Source of the DNA: Somniosus microcephalus
Taxonomy: Eukaryota
Assembly (NCBI GenBank): GCA_052327205.1
Contig: CM126234.1
Span: 29,698,001 to 29,762,000, forward strand
Reading direction: 5' to 3'
Length of the DNA stretch: 64,000 nt
Below are positions 1 to 39,390 of the stretch, in pieces. A program made the position numbers and the translations under genes. Position 1 is the first letter of the stretch. Each line of letters starts with the position of its first letter. The notes under the pieces were generated by a model. It made no database searches. It was given only the letters and a program-made list of their open reading frames with translations, and was not told the origin of the DNA.

Positions 1-480
1 GAGGGAAGTGGTATTGACGCGCGCCATTTTAAAATCGGCTTTTCAGGCCGCAGTGCTATCGCCGATCTACTTACAAAATGGCGCCTGCCGCCATCTCGGA
101 TGACTGTCGGGTAGATTAGCCAATGCGGAGGGCTGCCTTTCCCGGATATTTCCGCCCAGGGTTCGGCCTTTTGTGTTGTTGAGGCCCAATACAAAGTTTA
201 TTTAATCGTCACTTTCCAAGCGCTGATTGAATTCCGCATAGTTCCTCGCTGCTAGCTGGATGTGTGGAGGTAAGATCCCGAGTTTTTTTTGTTTTCGGCC
301 AATGCCTCTGCCAAGCACAGCGGCCTGGGCGAGTGGCTCCAGCTCTTATCCTCACCGTGTAATTGCTCTTGCTCGGCAATTTGTGCGTTCGCCCAACCGG
401 GAACTGCTGCCCTGTTTCGGATGACGGAGATTTTAATCGATGTGGCTTTCACAATGCTGCCACGGCCAGTCTTCAAAAGT
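1..480. promoter_or_regulatory. CpG-island promoter, probably bidirectional, with YY1 motifs and a CCAAT box
   Basis: CpG-rich against a CpG-depleted background. YY1-type motifs GCGCCATTTT (21-30), AAAATGGCGC (75-84) and CCGCCATCT (88-96); AGCCAAT (118-124). Donor-like GAG|GTAAGA on + (GT at 270) and TTT|GTAAGT on - (GT at 74-73). Confidence 0.7.
75..94 (-). CDS. Candidate first coding exon (MAAGAI[F/L]) of a divergent gene running out of the window to the left
   Basis: The minus strand reads ccgagATGGCGGCAGGCGCCATTTT|GTAAGTAG: good Kozak context (G at -3, G at +4) followed by a perfect intronic donor hexamer. Gene not identifiable. Confidence 0.35.
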
Positions 481-6895: not shown

Positions 6896-7837
6896 TTGTG
6901 AATGGCTTTAAACAGGAGATTAATTCAAATGACTGAACAATAATGTTCCCATTTTATGTTTGTGAATTTAATGGCAATCACAGCATTGTCAAATTGTTCC
7001 TTTTTTAATGGTTGAAGTGAAATACCAGTGGGAAATGATAACTAGTCCACAGTTTAGTATTGTGGAAAGGTAGCGGTCCATAAAAAGAGGGCATAGTTTG
7101 AGCCTTTGATGGGGTCCTGTTCATTTCACTTGCATTTAGGCGCAGCATATAGGAGGACCAGTTTGTTGTCCTGTGGCACTGAGGGAATAGGTTTAACTTT
7201 CCCCATGCCACTGTGTTCTTGCCTGCACTGCTGTGTGAAGGCTAAGCTCCTACAGGAGGTTAGATAAATCAGTGAGCCATCCTTGGATCACTTGCCAGCT
7301 CAAGGAGGCCTAGGAGTAAGTTGCCTGCCTGCTTTGGCCAGAGATGGCATGTGGCCCTAAGACACCTTGGGGACTGGATTTTAAAAAGTGATTTAAGCTT
7401 TTCATTCCACTTATATTCAAATAGTGGAGCAGGAAACCTGCTTTGTTTTTAAACCCTACAATTTAACTGCCAAAAGTATGTTCTTAAAATAAAATTCAGT
7501 GTTTCCAATTTCATATTTAATGCTGTGAAAGAATTAGATATGAACTTATGATTACTAAATATTCAGAGAAAACATCAACCCTCCAGACACACTCCAAACG
7601 CTTGTTCAGGTATCAGACCTGTTAAAAGTAGCCAATTCTAATTGCAAAACCATTTATATGGAGTGCTGTGTTTTCTAAAGTGACGTCTGTCAAAATGTCA
7701 CATTTAAAATCAAAATTAGGGATTGCCATTTGGCAAATCATGTTTGGTGTTTACTAGCAACCGACTGGGCCTTTTAGCATTGTCTGCTGCGGTGGAAGGC
7801 GCTTGTGTTGCGCTGCGCCTCTTCAGCCTGGAGTTGC

Positions 7838-8520
7838 TCTTGGCTGGGAGGACCTGGTTGGATGCTCTTTGTCGTGAAGTTACCCTTGACTGGGAGGACC
7901 TGCGTTGAGCCTCTTTGTGTCGGAGCTGTGAGGGAAGGAGCGGAGTCGAGCGGTGCTGTGCTGTATAGGCAAACCCATCCCTGGTTTGTGAGTTTTGATA
8001 CCGGTTAAAGTTTCGAGCTCGGTGAGATGAGTCGAAGATTTTCATGTGTACACACTGTGCGGAGAAGATTGGGGTTTGTTTGTGGGCCGGGGGTCATTTT
8101 AATTTGTAACAGGAAGTCGAGGCCTAAAGGCGCCATTACAGCCTGAAATCCAGGGAGCGCGTTTGAGAGCTTCCCGGTACAACTGCAATCGGCTGGGGCT
8201 GCGGTCGCCGAATCATTTAGCTGGAAAATTTGATTAAAGGTGGATTTAAGACAAAAGTAATCGTCGAATAAAGTGCGTTAGTTGGATGCGTGGCACGCAG
8301 GATAAAACCAGCCGCTTGTGTGGGGGAGGGGTGGGGAGGAGAATTCTGTTTAAAATTTTTTTTATTTTTTTTTACACATTGAAATAATACAATTAATTGC
8401 CGATATTTAAACGGTAATTTTTCTCACACATTTTTGGAATGAGTTTAATCTTGTTTGAGAGACGGCTAGAATTGCCGTTTTTTGGCGCTATGTCGCTCGT
8501 GTATGGGAGGACCTGTTTGC
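7838..8520 (+). promoter_or_regulatory. CpG-rich promoter or 5'UTR exon block of ZC3H10-like copy A
   Basis: CpG-rich. 7838-8230 aligns with 22971-23330, and 8420-8510 with ~28570-28740. Conserved ETS-like CAGGAAGT; donor-like TTT|GTGAGT at ~7988. Confidence 0.6.
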
Positions 8521-9940
8521 TCGTGCTATTTGGAGGAGTGCGTAAAAGAGCTGAACCGTGTATGAACCTGTGTTTTTTCTATCTTTTGTAACCGTTCTGA
8601 CTGTTGATTACTCCGACAGTTTAAATGTTCAGAGTGAAGGTTTAATTCTGTGTTCGTGTGTGTCATGCAGCAGAATGTTGAGGCCTAGCAGTCTTGTGAT
8701 CTGGAAAGCTGTGTCGAAAATGATTGTGTACATTACCGGAAGTGTAAAAATTACTAGAACTCGTATGGCAAGTACAGGAATTGATGAAACTGTCACATAC
8801 ACTGAAGAGTAAAATACATTTTTAGGATGGCAATATGAGTCAGTAAAATATGATAAATCCCCCATTTGTAGAACAAAATAGTGTGCAGAATTAAACTTGG
8901 TAAAAAGCCAAATTTCTTGCAAGCATGGTGACCCGAGCCTGCTGTTGCAGTACTCTGACTATAGGAAAGAGAAGAATCCATGATTTCAGACCTGTCTGCG
9001 CAGCCTGATAAGGAAACTTTGCGATCGGTTGGGAACTCTGCATCCCCAGATTTCTGAGGTCAGGTGCCTCTTGGGCCAGCAGGCCCAAGTCATGCCTACT
9101 GCTGATTCCCATGGAATCACACAAGATATTCCCAATTATTATCACTAGAGCAACTTGACACAGCGAGGGAGACCTGGATTTGAGGGTCTTCACGCTGATC
9201 GGATACTTTACCTTTTTACTAAAATGTTGATTTTTGCAAAACTTATAAAGTGGGTAGTGCTTTAAACGGACTTCTCATTTACGGCTACGTTACTTGTTTT
9301 CTTTTTAATTGTTCTGCCCTGTAAGTTTTTAAAAGAAAAAAAATCATGCAGTATTGGGAGGTCCATGTGCTTCCTGGGCTCATTGATGTTTTTGAGAAGT
9401 TAGTTGTGAGTTGGAGAATGATGGCCATGGGTGACTTCACAGTTTTCCTTTCTAGAGGTGTTGTGCCTACCTGCTGTACAGTGGTACAGCTGAGGTTGGT
9501 AACTTGTGTGGAGGACTGCCATTATGAACTCGTCTAGCACCATTTGTTTGGTGATCTACATATTACATTATTTTTGAGTGCGTTTTAGTGTTTTACCTGT
9601 TATAAGCTTTTCCTTTTGAAAGGAGTGCCAGAAATGATCTGTTCTGGCATGGCCCACATAATTAAATACAATGCTATAAATTGGAAGACTTCATGGACAA
9701 TCTCAAAATACAGAGCAGTGTGCATTTGTTTTTTGCGCACACTATACTTGTGGATCTGACTGATTCATTTGAGAGTTCTGTATTTTTTCACTTGTGCAAA
9801 CAAAAATACAATTGCACAGACTTCTTCGATGCTAATTGTCACTTGATAATGTTGCTACTGCGACTACTCTGAATTCAATGTTTTATGGAATGCGCAACAG
9901 TTACTTTGTAAATGAATCGCTCATTCTCTATAAAGACCTG

Positions 9941-10008
9941 CCTTTTTTTTTCTTTTGCAGTTGCTTGTGTAGCGCCTTGGCTAAACAGCGCAGAAATAAT
10001 CTATAAAA
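9941..10008 (+). other. Splice acceptor (AG 9959-9960) and 5'UTR part of the coding exon, copy A
   Basis: Polypyrimidine tract then TTTTGCAG|TTG. The same acceptor and the CAGCGCAGAAATAATC leader occur in copy B. Confidence 0.8.
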
Positions 10009-10680
10009 ATGCCAGATAACGGCACCGAGGAGGCTGGCCCCAGTACAGATGATATTTGCCGCGACTTCCTGCGCAACGTCTGCAACCGCGGTAAGCGCTG
10101 CAAGTTCCGCCACCCAGACGCTAATGAGATGTCCACCCTTGGCCTTTTATCTTCTGATCTACCCGTTAATAAAGGTGAGATTCCGATCTGCCACGACTAT
10201 CAGAAGGGTGACTGTCAAAGAGGGCCCAAATGTAAGTTCCTGCACGTAAAGCGCGACGAGTATGGTTATGAAAACCAAGGTATGGCGCACAGCCAGGTGT
10301 TTTCCCCCTTGGCACGCAGATATGATCGCTATGATGACCTCTACTCTAGAGGTTATGATGCTGACCACTACGATGGCTACGACACCCACCTGAAGAGGAG
10401 AAGGATGGAGGGCATGGGGTTTGAAGTGTACGACTACGGCATGCAGAATTCAGGCGCAGCTGACTACCGGTTTCTGAAGGAAGAGAATCTCATGCTGCAA
10501 AAGCGCGTTGAGGATCTCCAAAAACAGGTGTCAAACCTGATGGCCACCAATGAGCTCCTCCTGGAGCAGAATGCAAATCTCCGCAACCAAGTGAAGATGG
10601 GAATGATGGCTCCCATGACCCCCATGACCTCTATGACCCCCACACCCAGTGCAGCAGCTGGGAGATTCGCCACCCAGTGA
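10009..10680 (+). CDS. ZC3H10: ZC3H10-like CCCH zinc-finger protein, copy A (two fingers, 223 aa)
   Basis: CRDFLRNVCNRGKRCKFRH (C-x7-C-x5-C-x3-H) matches ZC3H10 finger 1; second finger CHDYQKGDCQRGPKCKFLH; basic LKRRR motif; coiled coil EENLMLQKRVEDLQKQVSNLMATNELLLEQN typical of ZC3H10. Paralog or ortholog status unresolved. Confidence 0.93.
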   Translation: MPDNGTEEAGPSTDDICRDFLRNVCNRGKRCKFRHPDANEMSTLGLLSSDLPVNKGEIPICHDYQKGDCQRGPKCKFLHVKRDEYGYENQGMAHSQVFSPLARRYDRYDDLYSRGYDADHYDGYDTHLKRRRMEGMGFEVYDYGMQNSGAADYRFLKEENLMLQKRVEDLQKQVSNLMATNELLLEQNANLRNQVKMGMMAPMTPMTSMTPTPSAAAGRFATQ

Positions 10681-13600: not shown

Positions 13601-13889
13601 CATGCCAATAAAATGGGAAACCATCACTGCTATAGTTGCATCTTATGGGCTGGAAAGGTTTAATGGTACAGTATATGTATAATGTGTATATATTGATTGC
13701 TACATAGTTCTTTGCTATGGTTAATGCTTTTCTATGCGATTACATGTAGAATGTTCTTTCCCATGATTAATCGTTCCACTGATGCAGACCTCCAGGACAG
13801 CAGAACCTATACAGTCCTAAACTAAGTGTACTTTGTTTAATTGTAGACCTTTTAAAGCAAAAATGTGTTCACCTTCATTTCTATGGAAG

Positions 13890-13950
13890 TCTGTTGAGTG
13901 TATAACAATAAAGCAAATTTTCATTTGTGTATTGTTTTGTATTCCTTGTG
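13890..13950 (+). terminator. Distal polyadenylation site of copy A
   Basis: TGTA upstream, AATAAA at 13907-13912, GT/T-rich downstream; context conserved at 39341. Additional AATAAA at 10751, 11641 and 13607. Confidence 0.75.
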
Positions 13951-33512: not shown

Positions 33513-35527
33513 AATGGTGTTATATCACATGATTTGGAGAATTATTTCACCAACCAGGTTACAGGAGAATATTGTTGCTTCTGTGTATATTGTGATATTT
33601 TACACACTTTGTGTCAGATGATAAGAATAATTGTCATTTTTTCAACTGAGAAATAAAAGGAAAATCAACTTTTCAACTTAAAATATCACGATCACAGTGT
33701 ATCGAAATGTCCGCCTGCAGAAAGGGGTCAACGCCTCCTGCTGCTTTCCCAGTTCCACGTACAGGCATTTATCATTCACTCAGGTCACCAAAGTTTAAAC
33801 AATTTAAATAACTACTCTTAAAAATGATGATAGGTATAAGACAATAATTCAATTGAGCAGATCTTCTGTTATAATAAACCAGCAGAGATAATGTAAGAGT
33901 TGTTGACTGCCAGAAGAACCCCCAAGGTTGAGTGGAAGTCTTAAAGTTGTCATCAATTCTTTGCAGTAACTCCTCATAACTGAGTGACACAGTGCATTGG
34001 TATCATCTATGAGGCACTGCCTCTGGACAGCCATGCAAGCCACAAACCTCTTACCTTGGAGTTGAGAGATGGAGGTGGTATGGTCTAGGTGAAAATATAA
34101 TGCCACTGCATTGTACAGAGGAACAGTAGGTAATGAATTTAGTCCCATGTTTTTTGAGGTGTTTTCCTTACAGAGAGGCGTGAGAGCTATCCTTCTCTGT
34201 GAGGAAATGGTGCATGGGGGAGGGAGAAAGGAAATCAAATTGGTGATGACATAGGACCTAGAATTAGATGGCTTTGTTCAAAAGATTCCATTATAATTAT
34301 TATTTTTGTGTGTTTTGCAGTTTCCATCTCGGCTGCATGCCCTCTGTTACCTCAAACTGGGAAAACAGTTCAAATTGCAGCCTTAATTATTAATAGTTTG
34401 TCTTCCTCTGGGTGCTGTGTTGTGGCCCGTTTTGAGGGTAAGCTGTGAATCTTTCCCATACTTCTTAAGTGCGCCTCCTGGCGGCTCCACTGAAGAATGG
34501 CATTGATTCTGCTGATAAAGTAGTGCATAGGCTTGATCCTCCAAACTCCAAGAGAATAACATGCTCAGCGGAGGAGAAGGAACACCGTCCAAAATACATC
34601 TCTATAAATAGGGCAGTGTGTCATTTTTAGTTGATAGAGAAGTGTTTTTACTTTTTTCATACTTTCAGGCTGCCTAGGCTAACCACATCCTTTTACGTTT
34701 TCAGCCTGTATATTATGATGCTGAACCAAACCCTAATATTACAATAATAAGGATAATTAAATGTCATTTTATGAACTTAGAAAAATAAATGCCTAAAACA
34801 ATTTAAAATAAAATATTTATAAAAAAAAACTTCTGCCCAACCTGTCTTTGATTTTTAGCTCCTTTTTTTCTTTGACCCTTTCTCCCTCAGTCTGCTATTT
34901 TCATTATTTTTATTTGAATTATTTTTCCATCTAATCCAACCCAATCTTAAAAATGAAAGTATTGCGCTTAAAACGTATTTAACTTCTGTCTCACACAGAA
35001 TCACAGAAACCCCACAGTGCAGATAGAGGCCATTTCCTGGGTCTCGCCACCCGCTTGGGAAGTGGGAGCCAAATCCCAATAAAATGGTCCTTGGCTAAGA
35101 ACAGGATTCAGTGGCTGTTTTTTCAGCCAGTTGAGGGTCATAAATATCACCATGTGCATTTTTGCTACAATTTTCTTGTGTCAAATACAGGAGCCCACTG
35201 CTCGATTAAATTATACCAACAGCTGGGAAGTGAGATCACACCCTGATGAGACAACTTGGCACCACACAAAATGGCTAATATTGACGTTATTGAAGCCTCA
35301 TGCAAACACCTTTCTTAATGCTATCGCTTTTACAAAACAAGGCAACTAATATACATAAAAAGAGTGCTTACAATTTGGTAGGAGATCTTTCACACTCTTG
35401 GGATAAACTTGTCACCCACTCCTCGTTGTGTATCCTCGATTAAGTCACCTTTGGGTGGGATTTTTTGGGGGTGGAGCGAAGATGACCCACGCTTACTTTG
35501 TGGTCGGTCCCTTTTTCTCTGACATGA

Positions 35528-35580
35528 TTCATTCTTCTTTTGCAGTTGTTTGTTGAGCAGCGCAGAAATAATCGGTAAAA
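35528..35580 (+). other. Splice acceptor (AG 35544-35545) and 5'UTR part of the coding exon, copy B
   Basis: TTCTTCTTTTGCAG|TTG, homologous to the copy A acceptor; contains GCAGCGC at 35557-35563. Confidence 0.8.
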
Positions 35581-36420
35581 ATGGCAGACAATAATGTTGT
35601 TAACAATGGCAAAGACGGGGCTGGCCAGAGCACGGAAGACGTTTGCCGGGACTACCTGCGCAATGTCTGCTATCGCGGCAAGACCTGCAAGTACCTCCAC
35701 CCGGACATAAATGAGGTACATGACCTAGGCGTGAAAAAGAATGAGTTTGTCTTCTGTCATTACTTTATGAATAATGTTTGTACCCGTGCAAAGTGCACAT
35801 TCATACACGGGACAGCAGAGGATGAGGAATACTACAAAAAAACAGGGGAGCTTCCCCTGCACTTGCGCTCCAAGGTGGCTGAAACCTACGGTCTGTCAGT
35901 TTCTGACCTACCTGCTGATAAAGGTGAGATTCCAGTATGCCGTGACTACCTTAAAGGTGACTGTCAAAGAGGCTCAAAATGTAGATTCCGGCACTTCAAA
36001 CGTGACAATTCAGAACATGAAATCAGACTGTCACGAGACCCCCCACTTTCTCAGCCATTGCGTAAATCTGATCGAGTGGATAATGACAGTGGCATCAATT
36101 GTTATGAGTATGACCACCGCTTGAAGAGGAGAAAGTTGGAAGGGTTTGAGTTTGAAGTGTACGAGTACGATCTCACAAGTCGACGGCCAGTTGACTCCGG
36201 ATACCTGGAGGAGGAGAACCTTATGCTGCGAAACCGGAATGAGGAACTCAAAAAGCAGGTGTCCAATTTGATGGGCAACAATGAGGTGCTTCTGGAGCAG
36301 AATGCGTTTCTCCGCAACCAAATAAAGACAGCAATGGTGAACTCCTTGCCCACAACGACAACTGGGAGATTCAGCCACTGCACTTCCCCAGGGGTTAAGA
36401 CCAGGGGACTTTGGGAGTAA
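35581..36420 (+). CDS. ZC3H10: ZC3H10-like CCCH zinc-finger protein, copy B (three fingers, 279 aa)
   Basis: Three CCCH fingers with ZC3H10 linkers (LGVKKNEFVFCH, EDEEYYKKTGELP, DLP..KGEIPVCRDYLKGDCQRG); LKRRK; coiled coil LEEENLMLRNRNEELKKQVSNLMGNNEVLLEQN. Confidence 0.95.
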   Translation: MADNNVVNNGKDGAGQSTEDVCRDYLRNVCYRGKTCKYLHPDINEVHDLGVKKNEFVFCHYFMNNVCTRAKCTFIHGTAEDEEYYKKTGELPLHLRSKVAETYGLSVSDLPADKGEIPVCRDYLKGDCQRGSKCRFRHFKRDNSEHEIRLSRDPPLSQPLRKSDRVDNDSGINCYEYDHRLKRRKLEGFEFEVYEYDLTSRRPVDSGYLEEENLMLRNRNEELKKQVSNLMGNNEVLLEQNAFLRNQIKTAMVNSLPTTTTGRFSHCTSPGVKTRGLWE

Positions 36421-39324
36421 AACACTTCCAAACATTGCAAAATCTGAAAATTAATCCAATAGTTCTAATGGGCTGACTTCCAAAATTCTCAACATCTCAG
36501 CAGTGACCCTATATGTTTAAATGCATCAGAGTCTCTGCTCCCTGTGACATTGGGTGGGAGGGAGGGGGGTGCTATCCTTGAGGAATACTATTCAAGTCCT
36601 GAAACGTACTGTTTATTGCTTCAGTCTATTCAATCAAGGAACATACCAAGCTTCTTGACAATTTGAAAAGGCCCTGCAGAAAGCATCTATGGATTTTAGC
36701 TGGAATAGCTTTTGCTTGATGCTGGCAGCAATGGCTAAGTGAAGTCATAGTGGGAAAAGTTGTTACTTGGAAGAGGCGTTGAAAGCTTGCACAAATGGTA
36801 GTCGCCCAAAGTAGGGTCAGCATCATAGGAAATGCAAATCTTTTGCAAACTTTGTTGAAATACAGCTTGTGTCTTAACACCATACCTAGTGCAAAAAGCA
36901 ATGTATAAAACAACAGGTTACTTTCAAGGCCGTACTCACTGTGTGTGGAGGAGTGCTACCACAGACTTCGAATGGTGATCTGGGTTACAATGTATTTGGG
37001 ACCAGAATGGTGGTGGCCATGCTGCCTTTGGACTGAGCTGAGCCAGACTGAAGTATACCAACATCAGTGTTCCAAAACCTCTCTAATTGAGTGATCTGGA
37101 ACAGCTTCTAACATGTCTGAGACAAAAATGTAAACCATTGCAAAGGAACTCTGATAACGTTACAATACCATTCAAGTTAGTACCCTGAAATCCAATGACA
37201 CAATAAAGCTGCAATGCTTTTTTTTCTCCTAAGATGTGCTGCCTTGCAAACCGAACCGTGCGGCTGGCATGTAATGAAAGAAAGCAAATTATGTGGGTTA
37301 TCCCTATGTTGTCCAAAATGGACACACTTTTTTAAATAGAAAATGTATAATGGTAGTGTAGATACCGCACCCATTTTGACTTTTTGGCAATCTGCACATC
37401 TTGACTCACATTGAGCAATTCCCTCCCAACCCCTTGAAACAATAGAAACCCTCATTATACTTATTCTCTTTCTCCCCCCCCCCAAAACACACACACATCT
37501 GAGAACTTGTAATATCATAAACGACAGTAATACTGGGTAATGGTCACATTGGATATCAGCAGTTAAATGCGCAGGTACCAGATGCTATGGAATTCCTTTC
37601 TATCCTGTTATTCCAAAAAGTCATGAGAATTTGCAGTTCTAAGGGTGCATAGGAATAAATGTAAGTATTCAGTGAAGGAGGCTGTGTAACTGAAATCTGG
37701 TGTTATTTCTATTCAGTTACTCTAATATTGTGTACATTGTACTTGTAATCTAATAATGTTTCATAAAATGGTATCTGGTATTCACAGTTTGACGACACAA
37801 GATACTGGATCAGCGCATGGCGGTATCAGTATGTCCCCAGTTCTGTTATACTAACCAATCTCTCAGCCTCAGTAAGAAAATGCCAGACTTGGGACAGGAG
37901 CGGAACTTGTATGCAAGGAGGCGCATAATGTCACTGCTTGAGAGGTACGCTTTCAGAACTGAAACGTTCTTTGGGTCTTATAGATGCCTTTGGCAGTTTT
38001 GAATGTCACGTGTTCAGCTTACTGCTACTTAACATCAGTATGCTGAAAATGCTCTCTTTCCCTCCCCCAAATATATTTAGTATTACACAACCCTGTGTGA
38101 ACTTGCTGAATGAGCTTAGTTGTTTGCCTGTGAATATTCGGGAATAATATTATTAACCCTTTCCAGCCAAGAAAGCCAGGCCCAGCCTTCGAATATAAAG
38201 ACCAGCAGCTCCAAAATATTATATTTTTATGATGATGTGTTTATACTATAATGGCTGTAAGCTCTCCAGACACATTTTATGTCTTTGGCAGATGTCAGTC
38301 AACTTAGTATGGACACTAGTATACCCAAGGTGCCCTGGAACTCCACTAGGATTAGTTTCACAAGGCATTTACCAAAACACCCACAATGCAGTTTCTTAAA
38401 TATGCTTGGTGGGTTTAAGAGACATTAGACTTCTAGTGAGAAAATGGCTGTGATGCTCAATTATTAGGACCATGTGTTTGTGCTATACATAGTCTCAATA
38501 ATAGTCTTTTTCTTTCTCTTGCAGCTCTCAGTCACAGTAGTTGTAAAGCGTGAAGTTGATACAATTTTTGTACTTTTGTTTTACACCATACTAATTGTGG
38601 TATATTAATGCAAAAGGAGTTGAGGTCCATAGGGCTCGGCACTTGGGCAAAAGTGCTTTTAAGTTCCATTTTAAAAAATAATGGACTTCCATAATAGTGA
38701 TTTGCTAATCTCGAATACATATGAGTTATGACAATTAAGCCACATTTATATCCCTTTTTAGAGTTCCGTTTTTCAGTAGTTTGAGTTCATTATCCCATAA
38801 ACATTGTACAGTATTAGACATTGTTGCATTGAATTTAAATTCTTTGAAATGGTTAGTAGATTAATAGATGCTGCAGATGACGAATAGTCTGGATATTAGA
38901 GGCCATAAAATTACTGATCTGCACTTTCATGCCTTTATTTTGTGGGCTGGAAAGGTTTAATGATGCAGTATATATGGTAATTTATTATATATACTGATTG
39001 CTACGGTATTTGTTACCGTCAGTGCTTTTCTTTGCGATTACGTCAATGTTCTTTCTCAAGGTTAATCTTTCCACTGATAGAAAGACCTTCAGGATTGCAG
39101 ATACTTAGTTTAAATCAACAGAGATTCCTCCAGTATGTAGGGGAACCTACATTGAGATCACAGGCCCCTACATTGAAAATTGGCCACATCTTAAAAAACA
39201 TAAAAGATACCTTTTTTAATTTGTTAATACCTGCCATCTATTAAATCCTACATTGATACCTAACCCCCTCCATTTACTGTTTAATTGTGCGCCTTTTAAA
39301 AGTAGAAATTTCTGAAAGCCTATT

Positions 39325-39390
39325 GGTGAGTGTATTTAACAATAAAGTAATTTTTCACTTATTAAGTGCATTGTCTTTTTATTCTTGCAC
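39325..39390 (+). terminator. Distal polyadenylation site of copy B
   Basis: TGAGTGTATTTAACAATAAAG (AATAAA 39341-39346) matches TGAGTGTATAACAATAAAG in copy A; T-rich downstream. Confidence 0.75.

What the first reader, a model, noticed from the sequence alone, without database searches (positions are those of the whole stretch)
35546..35583. ZC3H10's own RNA motif lies in a conserved 5'UTR block of both paralogs: possible autoregulation
Seen: CAGCGCAGAAATAATC is identical in both leaders while the flanks diverge. Copy B has exact GCAGCGC (35557-35563); copy A has ACAGCGC (9985-9991) plus GTAGCGC (9969-9975). The CpG is kept in a CpG-depleted genome, and the block lies between the 3' splice site and the ATG. 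Known: human ZC3H10 binds GCAGCGC (the pri-miR-143 site). Inference: auto- or cross-regulation of splicing or translation. The motif variant in A parallels its changed fingers.
Basis: partly seen in the sequence, partly recalled or inferred. Interest (0 to 1): 0.7.

Follow-up and report, generated by a model that had tools for sequence, protein, structure and literature searches.

The report
Conserved exon start of shark ZC3H10s
The short stretch between the splice site and the start codon is strongly conserved across five neighbouring ZC3H10 gene copies of a shark and likely helps choose which coding exon is spliced in; the protein's own binding word is exact in only one copy, so self-regulation is unlikely as a general rule.

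Summary
A 16-nt block is identical in both leaders, beyond neutral drift (leader 30/35 identical, fourfold sites 22/41), and copy B's 35-nt leader shows no change in four other organisms. The genome has a five-copy tandem cluster, and GCAGCGC is exact in 1 of 5. The canonical copy, with the most vertebrate-like fingers, reads GAAGCAC and lacks the CpG. Copy A lacks finger 2 altogether; B's two RNA-binding fingers have each changed 5 conserved residues. Read-through peptides exclude GCAGCGC from the last 18 codons of 39 of 40 non-shark leader strings, human included. The invariant core is CAGAAATA, downstream of the motif, and conservation runs on into a branch-point-like intron word. In other organisms B's acceptor is spliced to first exons whose homologues lie upstream of copy A, so the two acceptors probably compete. 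Best reading: an old acceptor-to-start element, likely a splicing enhancer read by general factors (0.45). Cross-regulation of B by canonical ZC3H10 stays possible (0.18). The scan had noted this cluster in other genomes, not this block.

The parts
35546..35580 (+). Copy B: untranslated 35-nt start of the coding exon; 13 nt shorter than the other copies
   Evidence: no difference in contigs of 4 of 4 runs laid
35557..35563 (+). Exact GCAGCGC, the only exact site among the five leaders
35558..35573 (+). 16-nt block identical to copy A; holds the core CAGAAATA invariant in 4 of 4 intact copies
35562..35567 (+). GCAGAA, a hexamer of the INT3 splice-enhancer set; the canonical copy has ACAGAA, also INT3, in register
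   Evidence: PMC4054783 supplement 1, compared by eye
35492..35545 (+). Copy B intron end: branch-point-like word CTTACTTTG (label from recalled consensus), pyrimidine tract, acceptor AG
   Evidence: word found 34-61 nt upstream of the acceptor in 5 of 5 copies; junction seen in 3 of 4 runs
35581..36420 (+). ZC3H10 copy B coding sequence, 279 aa, three CCCH fingers with diverged fingers 1 and 2, no C-terminal tail
   Evidence: cluster of 16 shark and ray orthologues
9961..10008 (+). Copy A: untranslated 48-nt start of the coding exon (acceptor inferred by homology to B; not seen spliced here)
9985..10001 (+). Copy A: ACAGCGC plus the shared 16-nt block
9900..9960 (+). Copy A intron end with GTTACTTTG word, pyrimidine tract and AG
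10009..10680 (+). ZC3H10 copy A coding sequence, 223 aa, two fingers (finger 2 deleted)
   Evidence: 74% identical relative in Callorhinchus
243..269 (+). 3' end of an upstream non-coding exon (followed by GTAAGA) whose 27 nt equal the sequence joined to B's acceptor in run X9
7953..7968 (+). Exon end at copy A's CpG island; its 16 nt equal the end of the sequence joined to B's acceptor in run X10 (a 98% copy lies 28 kb upstream of it, so the source is ambiguous)

Best explanation
The block is part of an old, conserved stretch from the intron end to the start codon that all five copies of a shark ZC3H10 cluster share, and it likely works as a splicing enhancer read by general splicing factors rather than by ZC3H10. 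Shown: shared ancestry, purifying selection, position just after the acceptor, several upstream exons joined to B's acceptor. Inferred: A and B are alternative coding last exons on shared first exons, so their acceptors compete and need exon-start signals; the purine-rich CAGAAATA core supplies one; B's exact GCAGCGC is one variant of a slot that differs in every copy.
For: Leader identity between copies is 62-86% against 40-54% at fourfold sites. B's leader has 0 of 35 differences in 4 of 4 runs, while listed 3' pieces differ by 11% (X10) and 14% (X17); P(0 of 35)=0.016 and 0.006. Among the 4 intact copies 4 of 7 motif positions but all 8 of CAGAAATA are invariant. Conservation crosses the acceptor: a TTA[C/T]TTTG word precedes it in 5 of 5 copies. 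An INT3 enhancer hexamer sits in register in 4 of 4 intact copies and not in the pseudogene, and the canonical G-to-A change spoils the ZC3H10 word but keeps the hexamer. B's acceptor takes three different upstream sequences in three runs; two have homologues upstream of copy A. Database names call B-type protein isoform X1 and A-type isoform X2 in Chiloscyllium.
Against: No splicing assay. INT3 density is not raised in A, B or the six-finger copy (1 hexamer each, about what 84 of 4096 gives by chance; only the canonical leader has 6; by eye), and INT3 is a human set. The caecilian leader does not keep the hexamer. The block is also within 25 nt of the ATG, so a translation role fits as well. 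The joins were seen in other organisms, whose gene order was not checked, and no join of the same first exon to A was tested. The coding bases next to B's leader are also nearly unchanged (0-1 of 102).
Confidence: 0.45

Rival explanations
1. The block tunes translation initiation: a fixed context in the last 25 nt before the ATG, with a guard stop in frame.
For: A at -3 and an in-frame TAA/TAG four codons before the ATG in 5 of 5 copies; the best-kept columns lie within 22 nt of the ATG.
Against: The zebra shark B and caecilian leaders read through in frame, so the stop is not kept. No conserved RNA fold: 0 of 14 predicted pairs covary. Does not explain the conserved intron word.
Confidence: 0.22
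2. Canonical ZC3H10 binds GCAGCGC in copy B's pre-mRNA and regulates this paralogue (cross-regulation, not self-regulation), for example by shifting acceptor choice between A and B.
For: Exact motif in a 35-nt leader is rare (2 of 1828 tiles); kept in 4 of 4 runs and compatible in zebra shark; the column-wise majority of the five copies spells GCAGCGC; canonical fingers 1 and 2 depart at only 1 of 19 and 1 of 15 conserved columns; ZC3H10 is nuclear (PMC13375009 passage).
Against: The whole leader is invariant, so the 7-mer needs no reason of its own (P of no change in 7 nt is 0.36-0.44). Over about 15 kb of coding exon plus downstream DNA of the five copies there are 2 exact sites, one in the pseudogene, against about 1 expected. 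An independent selection gave AGUGCAG, and attributes the last G of GCAGCG to library design (PMC11612968 passage). No binding data.
Confidence: 0.18
3. Each copy binds its own leader variant.
For: Every copy has its own heptamer and its own fingers, each stable across species: B fingers 1-2 identical in 13 of 14 orthologues; six-finger leader matches ours in the loose ends of 3 of 4 runs.
Against: A has no finger 2; B departs at 5 of 19 and 5 of 15 columns yet carries the human word; the canonical copy has the human-like fingers and a two-mismatch word; the word is excluded in 39 of 40 non-shark leader strings.
Confidence: 0.06
4. The identity comes from gene conversion or slow change among tandem copies, with no function.
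For: Conversion or recent duplication does occur here: the promoter of A and that of the pseudogene are 98% identical over 481-611 nt.
Against: The longest identical runs between A and B are 16 and 14 nt, with a 13-nt deletion between them; A has a chimaera relative, so the split is old; B orthologues are invariant.
Confidence: 0.05
5. The block is the end of a conserved upstream ORF that stops 2 nt before the main ATG.
For: The canonical copy has an ATG at exon position 1 opening 14 codons that end TGA 2 nt before the main ATG; A and B have TAA at that place.
Against: The ATG is TT(G/C) in the other 4 copies, the six-finger copy lacks the stop, phases differ between A and B, and the zebra shark leader is shifted by one base. 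No ZC3H10 uORF in the supplements searched.
Confidence: 0.04

Closest known systems
Exonic splice enhancers near exon ends (INT3 set, Caceres and Hurst 2013, PMC4054783; abstract and supplement 1 seen)
   Same: Purine-rich, close to an exon boundary, slow evolving; GCAGAA and ACAGAA are INT3 hexamers.
   Different: Lies in an untranslated exon start of a shark; hexamer density is not above chance in 3 of 4 intact copies; no assay.
ZC3H10 site in pri-miR-143 (motif table in PMC6321451; review passage in PMC8268830; original paper not seen)
   Same: The same seven letters, on the sense strand of a nuclear precursor RNA, in copy B.
   Different: Exact in 1 of 5 copies, absent from the canonical gene and from mammalian leaders; an mRNA leader, not a microRNA stem.
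RNA-binding proteins that autoregulate through conserved sites in their own pre-mRNA (SR proteins, hnRNPs; recalled, not looked up)
   Same: A conserved non-coding element at a splice decision of an RNA-binding protein gene.
   Different: Those sites are usually multiple and kept across orthologues; here there is one site in one shark-and-ray paralogue.
Genes with alternative last exons from tandem duplication (general class, recalled)
   Same: Shared upstream exons can be joined to a distant duplicated exon, skipping a nearer one.
   Different: Here each alternative exon would hold a whole coding sequence, so the splice choice would pick the protein.

Membership tests
Autoregulatory RBP site (ZC3H10) | Cognate motif present in the transcript of the protein that binds it | tested here: not met
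   Canonical leader reads GAAGCAC; no GCAGCGC in its coding exon plus 2 kb.
Autoregulatory RBP site (ZC3H10) | Motif kept in orthologous leaders | tested here: not met
   Not encodable in the last 18 codons of 33 of 34 strings and 6 of 6 further ones incl. human; indirect, via peptides. Met only within B orthologues.
Autoregulatory RBP site (ZC3H10) | Encoded protein keeps the RNA-binding fingers 1 and 2 | tested here: not met
   A lacks finger 2; B departs at 5 of 19 and 5 of 15 conserved columns. Altered specificity is inferred, not measured.
Autoregulatory RBP site (ZC3H10) | Motif is the conserved core or is enriched | tested here: not met
   4 of 7 motif columns invariant against 8 of 8 next to it; 2 sites in about 15 kb, about 1 expected.
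Autoregulatory RBP site (ZC3H10) | Binding and an effect on expression | not testable with these tools
   No CLIP, binding or reporter data; none seen in the listing.
Exonic splice enhancer | Close to an exon boundary | tested here: met
   12-40 nt after the acceptor; junction seen for B in 3 of 4 runs.
Exonic splice enhancer | Slow evolving | tested here: met
Exonic splice enhancer | Known enhancer hexamers above chance | tested here: inconclusive
   One INT3 hexamer in register in 4 of 4 intact copies, none in the pseudogene; density raised only in the canonical leader (by eye).
Exonic splice enhancer | Mutation lowers use of the splice site | not testable with these tools
   Needs a minigene.
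Conserved upstream ORF | Start, frame and stop kept across homologues | tested here: not met
   ATG in 1 of 5 copies; frame and stop not kept.
Structured RNA element | Covarying base pairs or an Rfam match | tested here: not met
   0 of 14 pairs with a two-sided change; one sub-threshold intron hit outside the block.

The most novel reading that the evidence does not exclude
Sharks and rays pick between whole ZC3H10 proteins by splicing shared first exons to alternative coding exons, and canonical ZC3H10 steers that choice by binding the GCAGCGC kept only at the start of copy B's exon: a parent protein controlling which daughter paralogue is made.
Probability: 0.1. Interest if true: 0.65.

Novelty: new member of a known kind. 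Interest (0 to 1): 0.28.

Why it matters
As it stands it is a well-conserved exon start of an unstudied shark gene cluster, of modest interest. It matters more for what it uncovered: copies A and B may be alternative coding exons of one transcription unit, kept across sharks and rays. If ZC3H10 steered that choice, it would be a compact natural test of a motif known mainly from in vitro work and one microRNA, and a case of a gene regulating its own duplicates.

Tried and rejected
No RNA holder was on record; the runs used are guessed RNA. The first read-laying over 15 kb was swamped by repeats and its tables were cut. Metagenome scan with the canonical protein gave 1 locus, an intron-rich distant relative with no useful leader. 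Genome-wide pattern counts (15 hits of the 14-mer; 3 hits with the acceptor, 2 of them A and B) show no spread of the element to other genes but are lower bounds. uORF idea rejected (see rivals); supplements of PMC10032668 (6 files, 0 hits), PMC11685710 (8 files, 1 unreadable, 0 hits) and PMC4568590 (16 files, 7 not searched, 1 hit that is a truncated main ORF) held no ZC3H10 uORF; the supplement of PMC7530721 could not be read and the GENCODE Ribo-seq ORF paper is not held, so these may bear on the uORF question. RNA structure rejected. My early idea that B's motif was created by its 13-nt deletion is not shown: the deletion lies between repeats and the G may be inherited. Peptide-level comparison of tetrapod and shark leaders was uninformative (1 of 25 pairs near 0.01); the nucleotide-level one gave a weak signal for caecilian only (0-8 of 150 shuffles for 5 leaders; human and turtle 37-100 of 150 for the 2 leaders tried). 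The sequence joined to B in run X14 was not found in the 152 kb examined. No structure or complex prediction was run, since RNA binding cannot be scored.

Full report
Observation. The window holds two CCCH zinc-finger genes, A (10009-10680, 223 aa) and B (35581-36420, 279 aa). Each block lies between a TTTTGCAG acceptor and the ATG. The A and B leaders match at 30 of 35 aligned sites, their fourfold-degenerate sites at 22 of 41; a 16-nt run has P=0.0007 at 55% identity and 0.022 at 70% (post hoc). The block is real and more than drift would leave.

Setting. The 6.4-Gb genome is that of a shark by its relatives (B is 96% identical to a sawshark protein). A search of the own genome shows more copies. 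On contig C33 lie the canonical 400-aa gene, a six-finger gene, a pseudogene, A and B; a sixth, two-finger copy on C32 has an unrelated leader. B has a cluster of 16 shark and ray relatives, A a cluster of 13 and a 74% identical chimaera relative, so the duplications are old.

The motif across copies. The heptamer slot reads GAAGCAC (canonical), GTAGCGC (six-finger), ACAGCAC (pseudogene), ACAGCGC (A) and GCAGCGC (B): exact in 1 of 5, CpG in 3 of 5. Among the 4 intact copies 4 of 7 motif columns are invariant, against 8 of 8 for CAGAAATA, which overlaps its last base. Against, the coding exons plus 2 kb of the five copies hold 2 exact sites in about 15 kb, where the regional rate predicts about 1.

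The fingers. GCAGCGC is listed as the ZC3H10 motif (PMC6321451, table passage). Another selection gave AGUGCAG and traces the last G of GCAGCG to library design (PMC11612968, passages). Fingers 1 and 2 are the RNA-binding ones and loss of either blocks binding (PMC6911170, passages citing Treiber 2017, which I did not see). Against 111 three-finger proteins from the 120 listed (8 elasmobranch rows removed, 1 without three matched fingers), canonical fingers 1 and 2 depart at 1 of 19 and 1 of 15 conserved columns, B's at 5 of 19 and 5 of 15, and A has no finger 2. The copy most able to bind the human word has the worst word; the copy with the word has the most changed fingers. That is the reverse of simple autoregulation.

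Orthologues of B. Contigs from four runs of four other organisms and four studies show no difference in 35546-35583, while the listed 3' pieces differ by 59 of 526 (X10) and 37 of 272 (X17); P(0 of 35) is 0.016 and 0.006, but P(0 of 7) is 0.44 and 0.36. The adjoining 102 coding bases differ at 0-1 sites, so the quiet zone is wider than the leader. A zebra shark B isoform is annotated as reading through its leader as CLLSSAEIFGK, against CLLSSAEIIGK for ours, which fits retention of the site. Six-finger contigs laid on the same stretch match our six-finger leader in their loose ends (21 of 21 in 3 runs, one change in the fourth) and differ from B at 4 of 30 sites, as ours does. Whole leaders are thus held fixed, whichever heptamer they carry.

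Other vertebrates. No vertebrate DNA could be fetched, so I used database proteins that read in frame through the leader. Of 273 proteins then held, 45 had such an extension, giving 34 distinct strings: 31 mammal-type, 1 gecko, 2 unnamed. GCAGCGC cannot be encoded in the last 18 codons of 33 of 34; over 40 codons it is possible in 3 of 34. Six more (human, caecilian, three turtles, buzzard) exclude it in the last 18 codons; one allows it further up. The test rests on annotation, sees only leaders without an in-frame stop, and includes no bony fish leader. The caecilian leader resembles all five shark leaders weakly at nucleotide level (0-8 of 150 shuffles); if homologous, its slot would read ACNGCNC, like A or the pseudogene.

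What the constraint most likely serves. Conservation crosses the splice site: a TTA[C/T]TTTG word lies 34-61 nt upstream of the acceptor in 5 of 5 copies ('branch-point-like' is from recalled consensus), and 14 identical bases span the A and B acceptors. B's acceptor is joined to three different sequences in three runs. One equals window 243-269 at 27 of 27 bases, followed by GTAAGA, 35 kb upstream and beyond copy A; another ends like 7953-7968 at A's CpG island; the third was not found. Database names call B-type protein isoform X1 and A-type isoform X2 in Chiloscyllium. I infer that A and B are alternative coding last exons with competing acceptors. The INT3 enhancer set contains both GCAGAA (A, B, six-finger) and ACAGAA (canonical), in register, and the pseudogene has neither (PMC4054783, supplement 1 read whole and compared by eye). 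This is weak: one hexamer per leader is near chance, the set is human, and the caecilian does not keep it. A translation role cannot be separated from a splicing role by sequence.

Rejected. A conserved uORF (ATG in 1 of 5 copies, frame not kept), an RNA structure and gene conversion (no long tract; old split).

Literature. Six searches: ZC3H10 with GCAGCGC (3 papers), uORF (1; passages unrelated), RNA-binding motif (44, 25 listed), autoregulat (4), shark (3), pri-miR-143 (3). By listing, none describes ZC3H10 autoregulation or the shark cluster; most subscription papers are outside the library. PMC13375009 and PMC8268830 were seen as passages.

Verdict. Observation confirmed; interpretation partly supported. 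An old, constrained acceptor-to-start segment, likely a splicing enhancer (0.45); translation context (0.22); cross-regulation of B by canonical ZC3H10 (0.18); autoregulation with co-evolving fingers (0.06); conversion or drift (0.05); uORF (0.04). New member of a known kind, interest 0.28.

Noticed in passing
window 243-269, 7953-7968, 9961, 35546: Copy B's acceptor is joined, in other organisms, to first exons whose homologues lie upstream of copy A; A and B may be alternative whole-protein last exons of one transcription unit.
   Followed up: partly
window 10009-10680: Copy A lacks finger 2 and the C-terminal tail yet is kept in sharks, rays and chimaera (74%); with its coiled coil it could act as a partner or competitor of the canonical protein.
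   Followed up: partly
L003 (G000:C33:29650827 onward): Six-finger ZC3H10 copy with finger 1 repeated four times, head to head with the canonical gene across one CpG island (L014:5750-6500).
   Followed up: partly
L011:4252-4850 (G000:C33:29687252 onward): Pseudogene of A type with a stop in finger 1 and frameshifts; its promoter region is 98% identical to window 7750-8230, much closer than the genes themselves.
   Followed up: partly
L002 (canonical leader, G000:C33:29638789-29638835, minus strand): ATG at the first base of the coding exon opens a 14-codon ORF ending 2 nt before the main ATG; absent from the four paralogues; not checked in other sharks.
   Followed up: partly
L005/L008 (G000:C32:20937k): A further two-finger ZC3H10 copy on another contig with an unrelated, AT-rich leader; it lost finger 2 too, perhaps independently of A.
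   Followed up: no
window 35530-35685: B's first 100 coding bases are nearly unchanged in four other organisms (0-1 differences), less than the rest of the gene; a wider nucleotide-level constraint is possible.
   Followed up: partly
window 13640-13944 and 38937-39384: A and B share non-coding similarity 3.4-3.9 kb after their start codons (77% over 171 nt), probably conserved 3' UTR elements.
   Followed up: no
proteins P0041, P0048, P0050-P0052, P0325: Many mammalian ZC3H10 leaders are open in frame with an upstream Met and a well-kept peptide, which hints at an N-terminally extended isoform or a purine-rich exon start.
   Followed up: no
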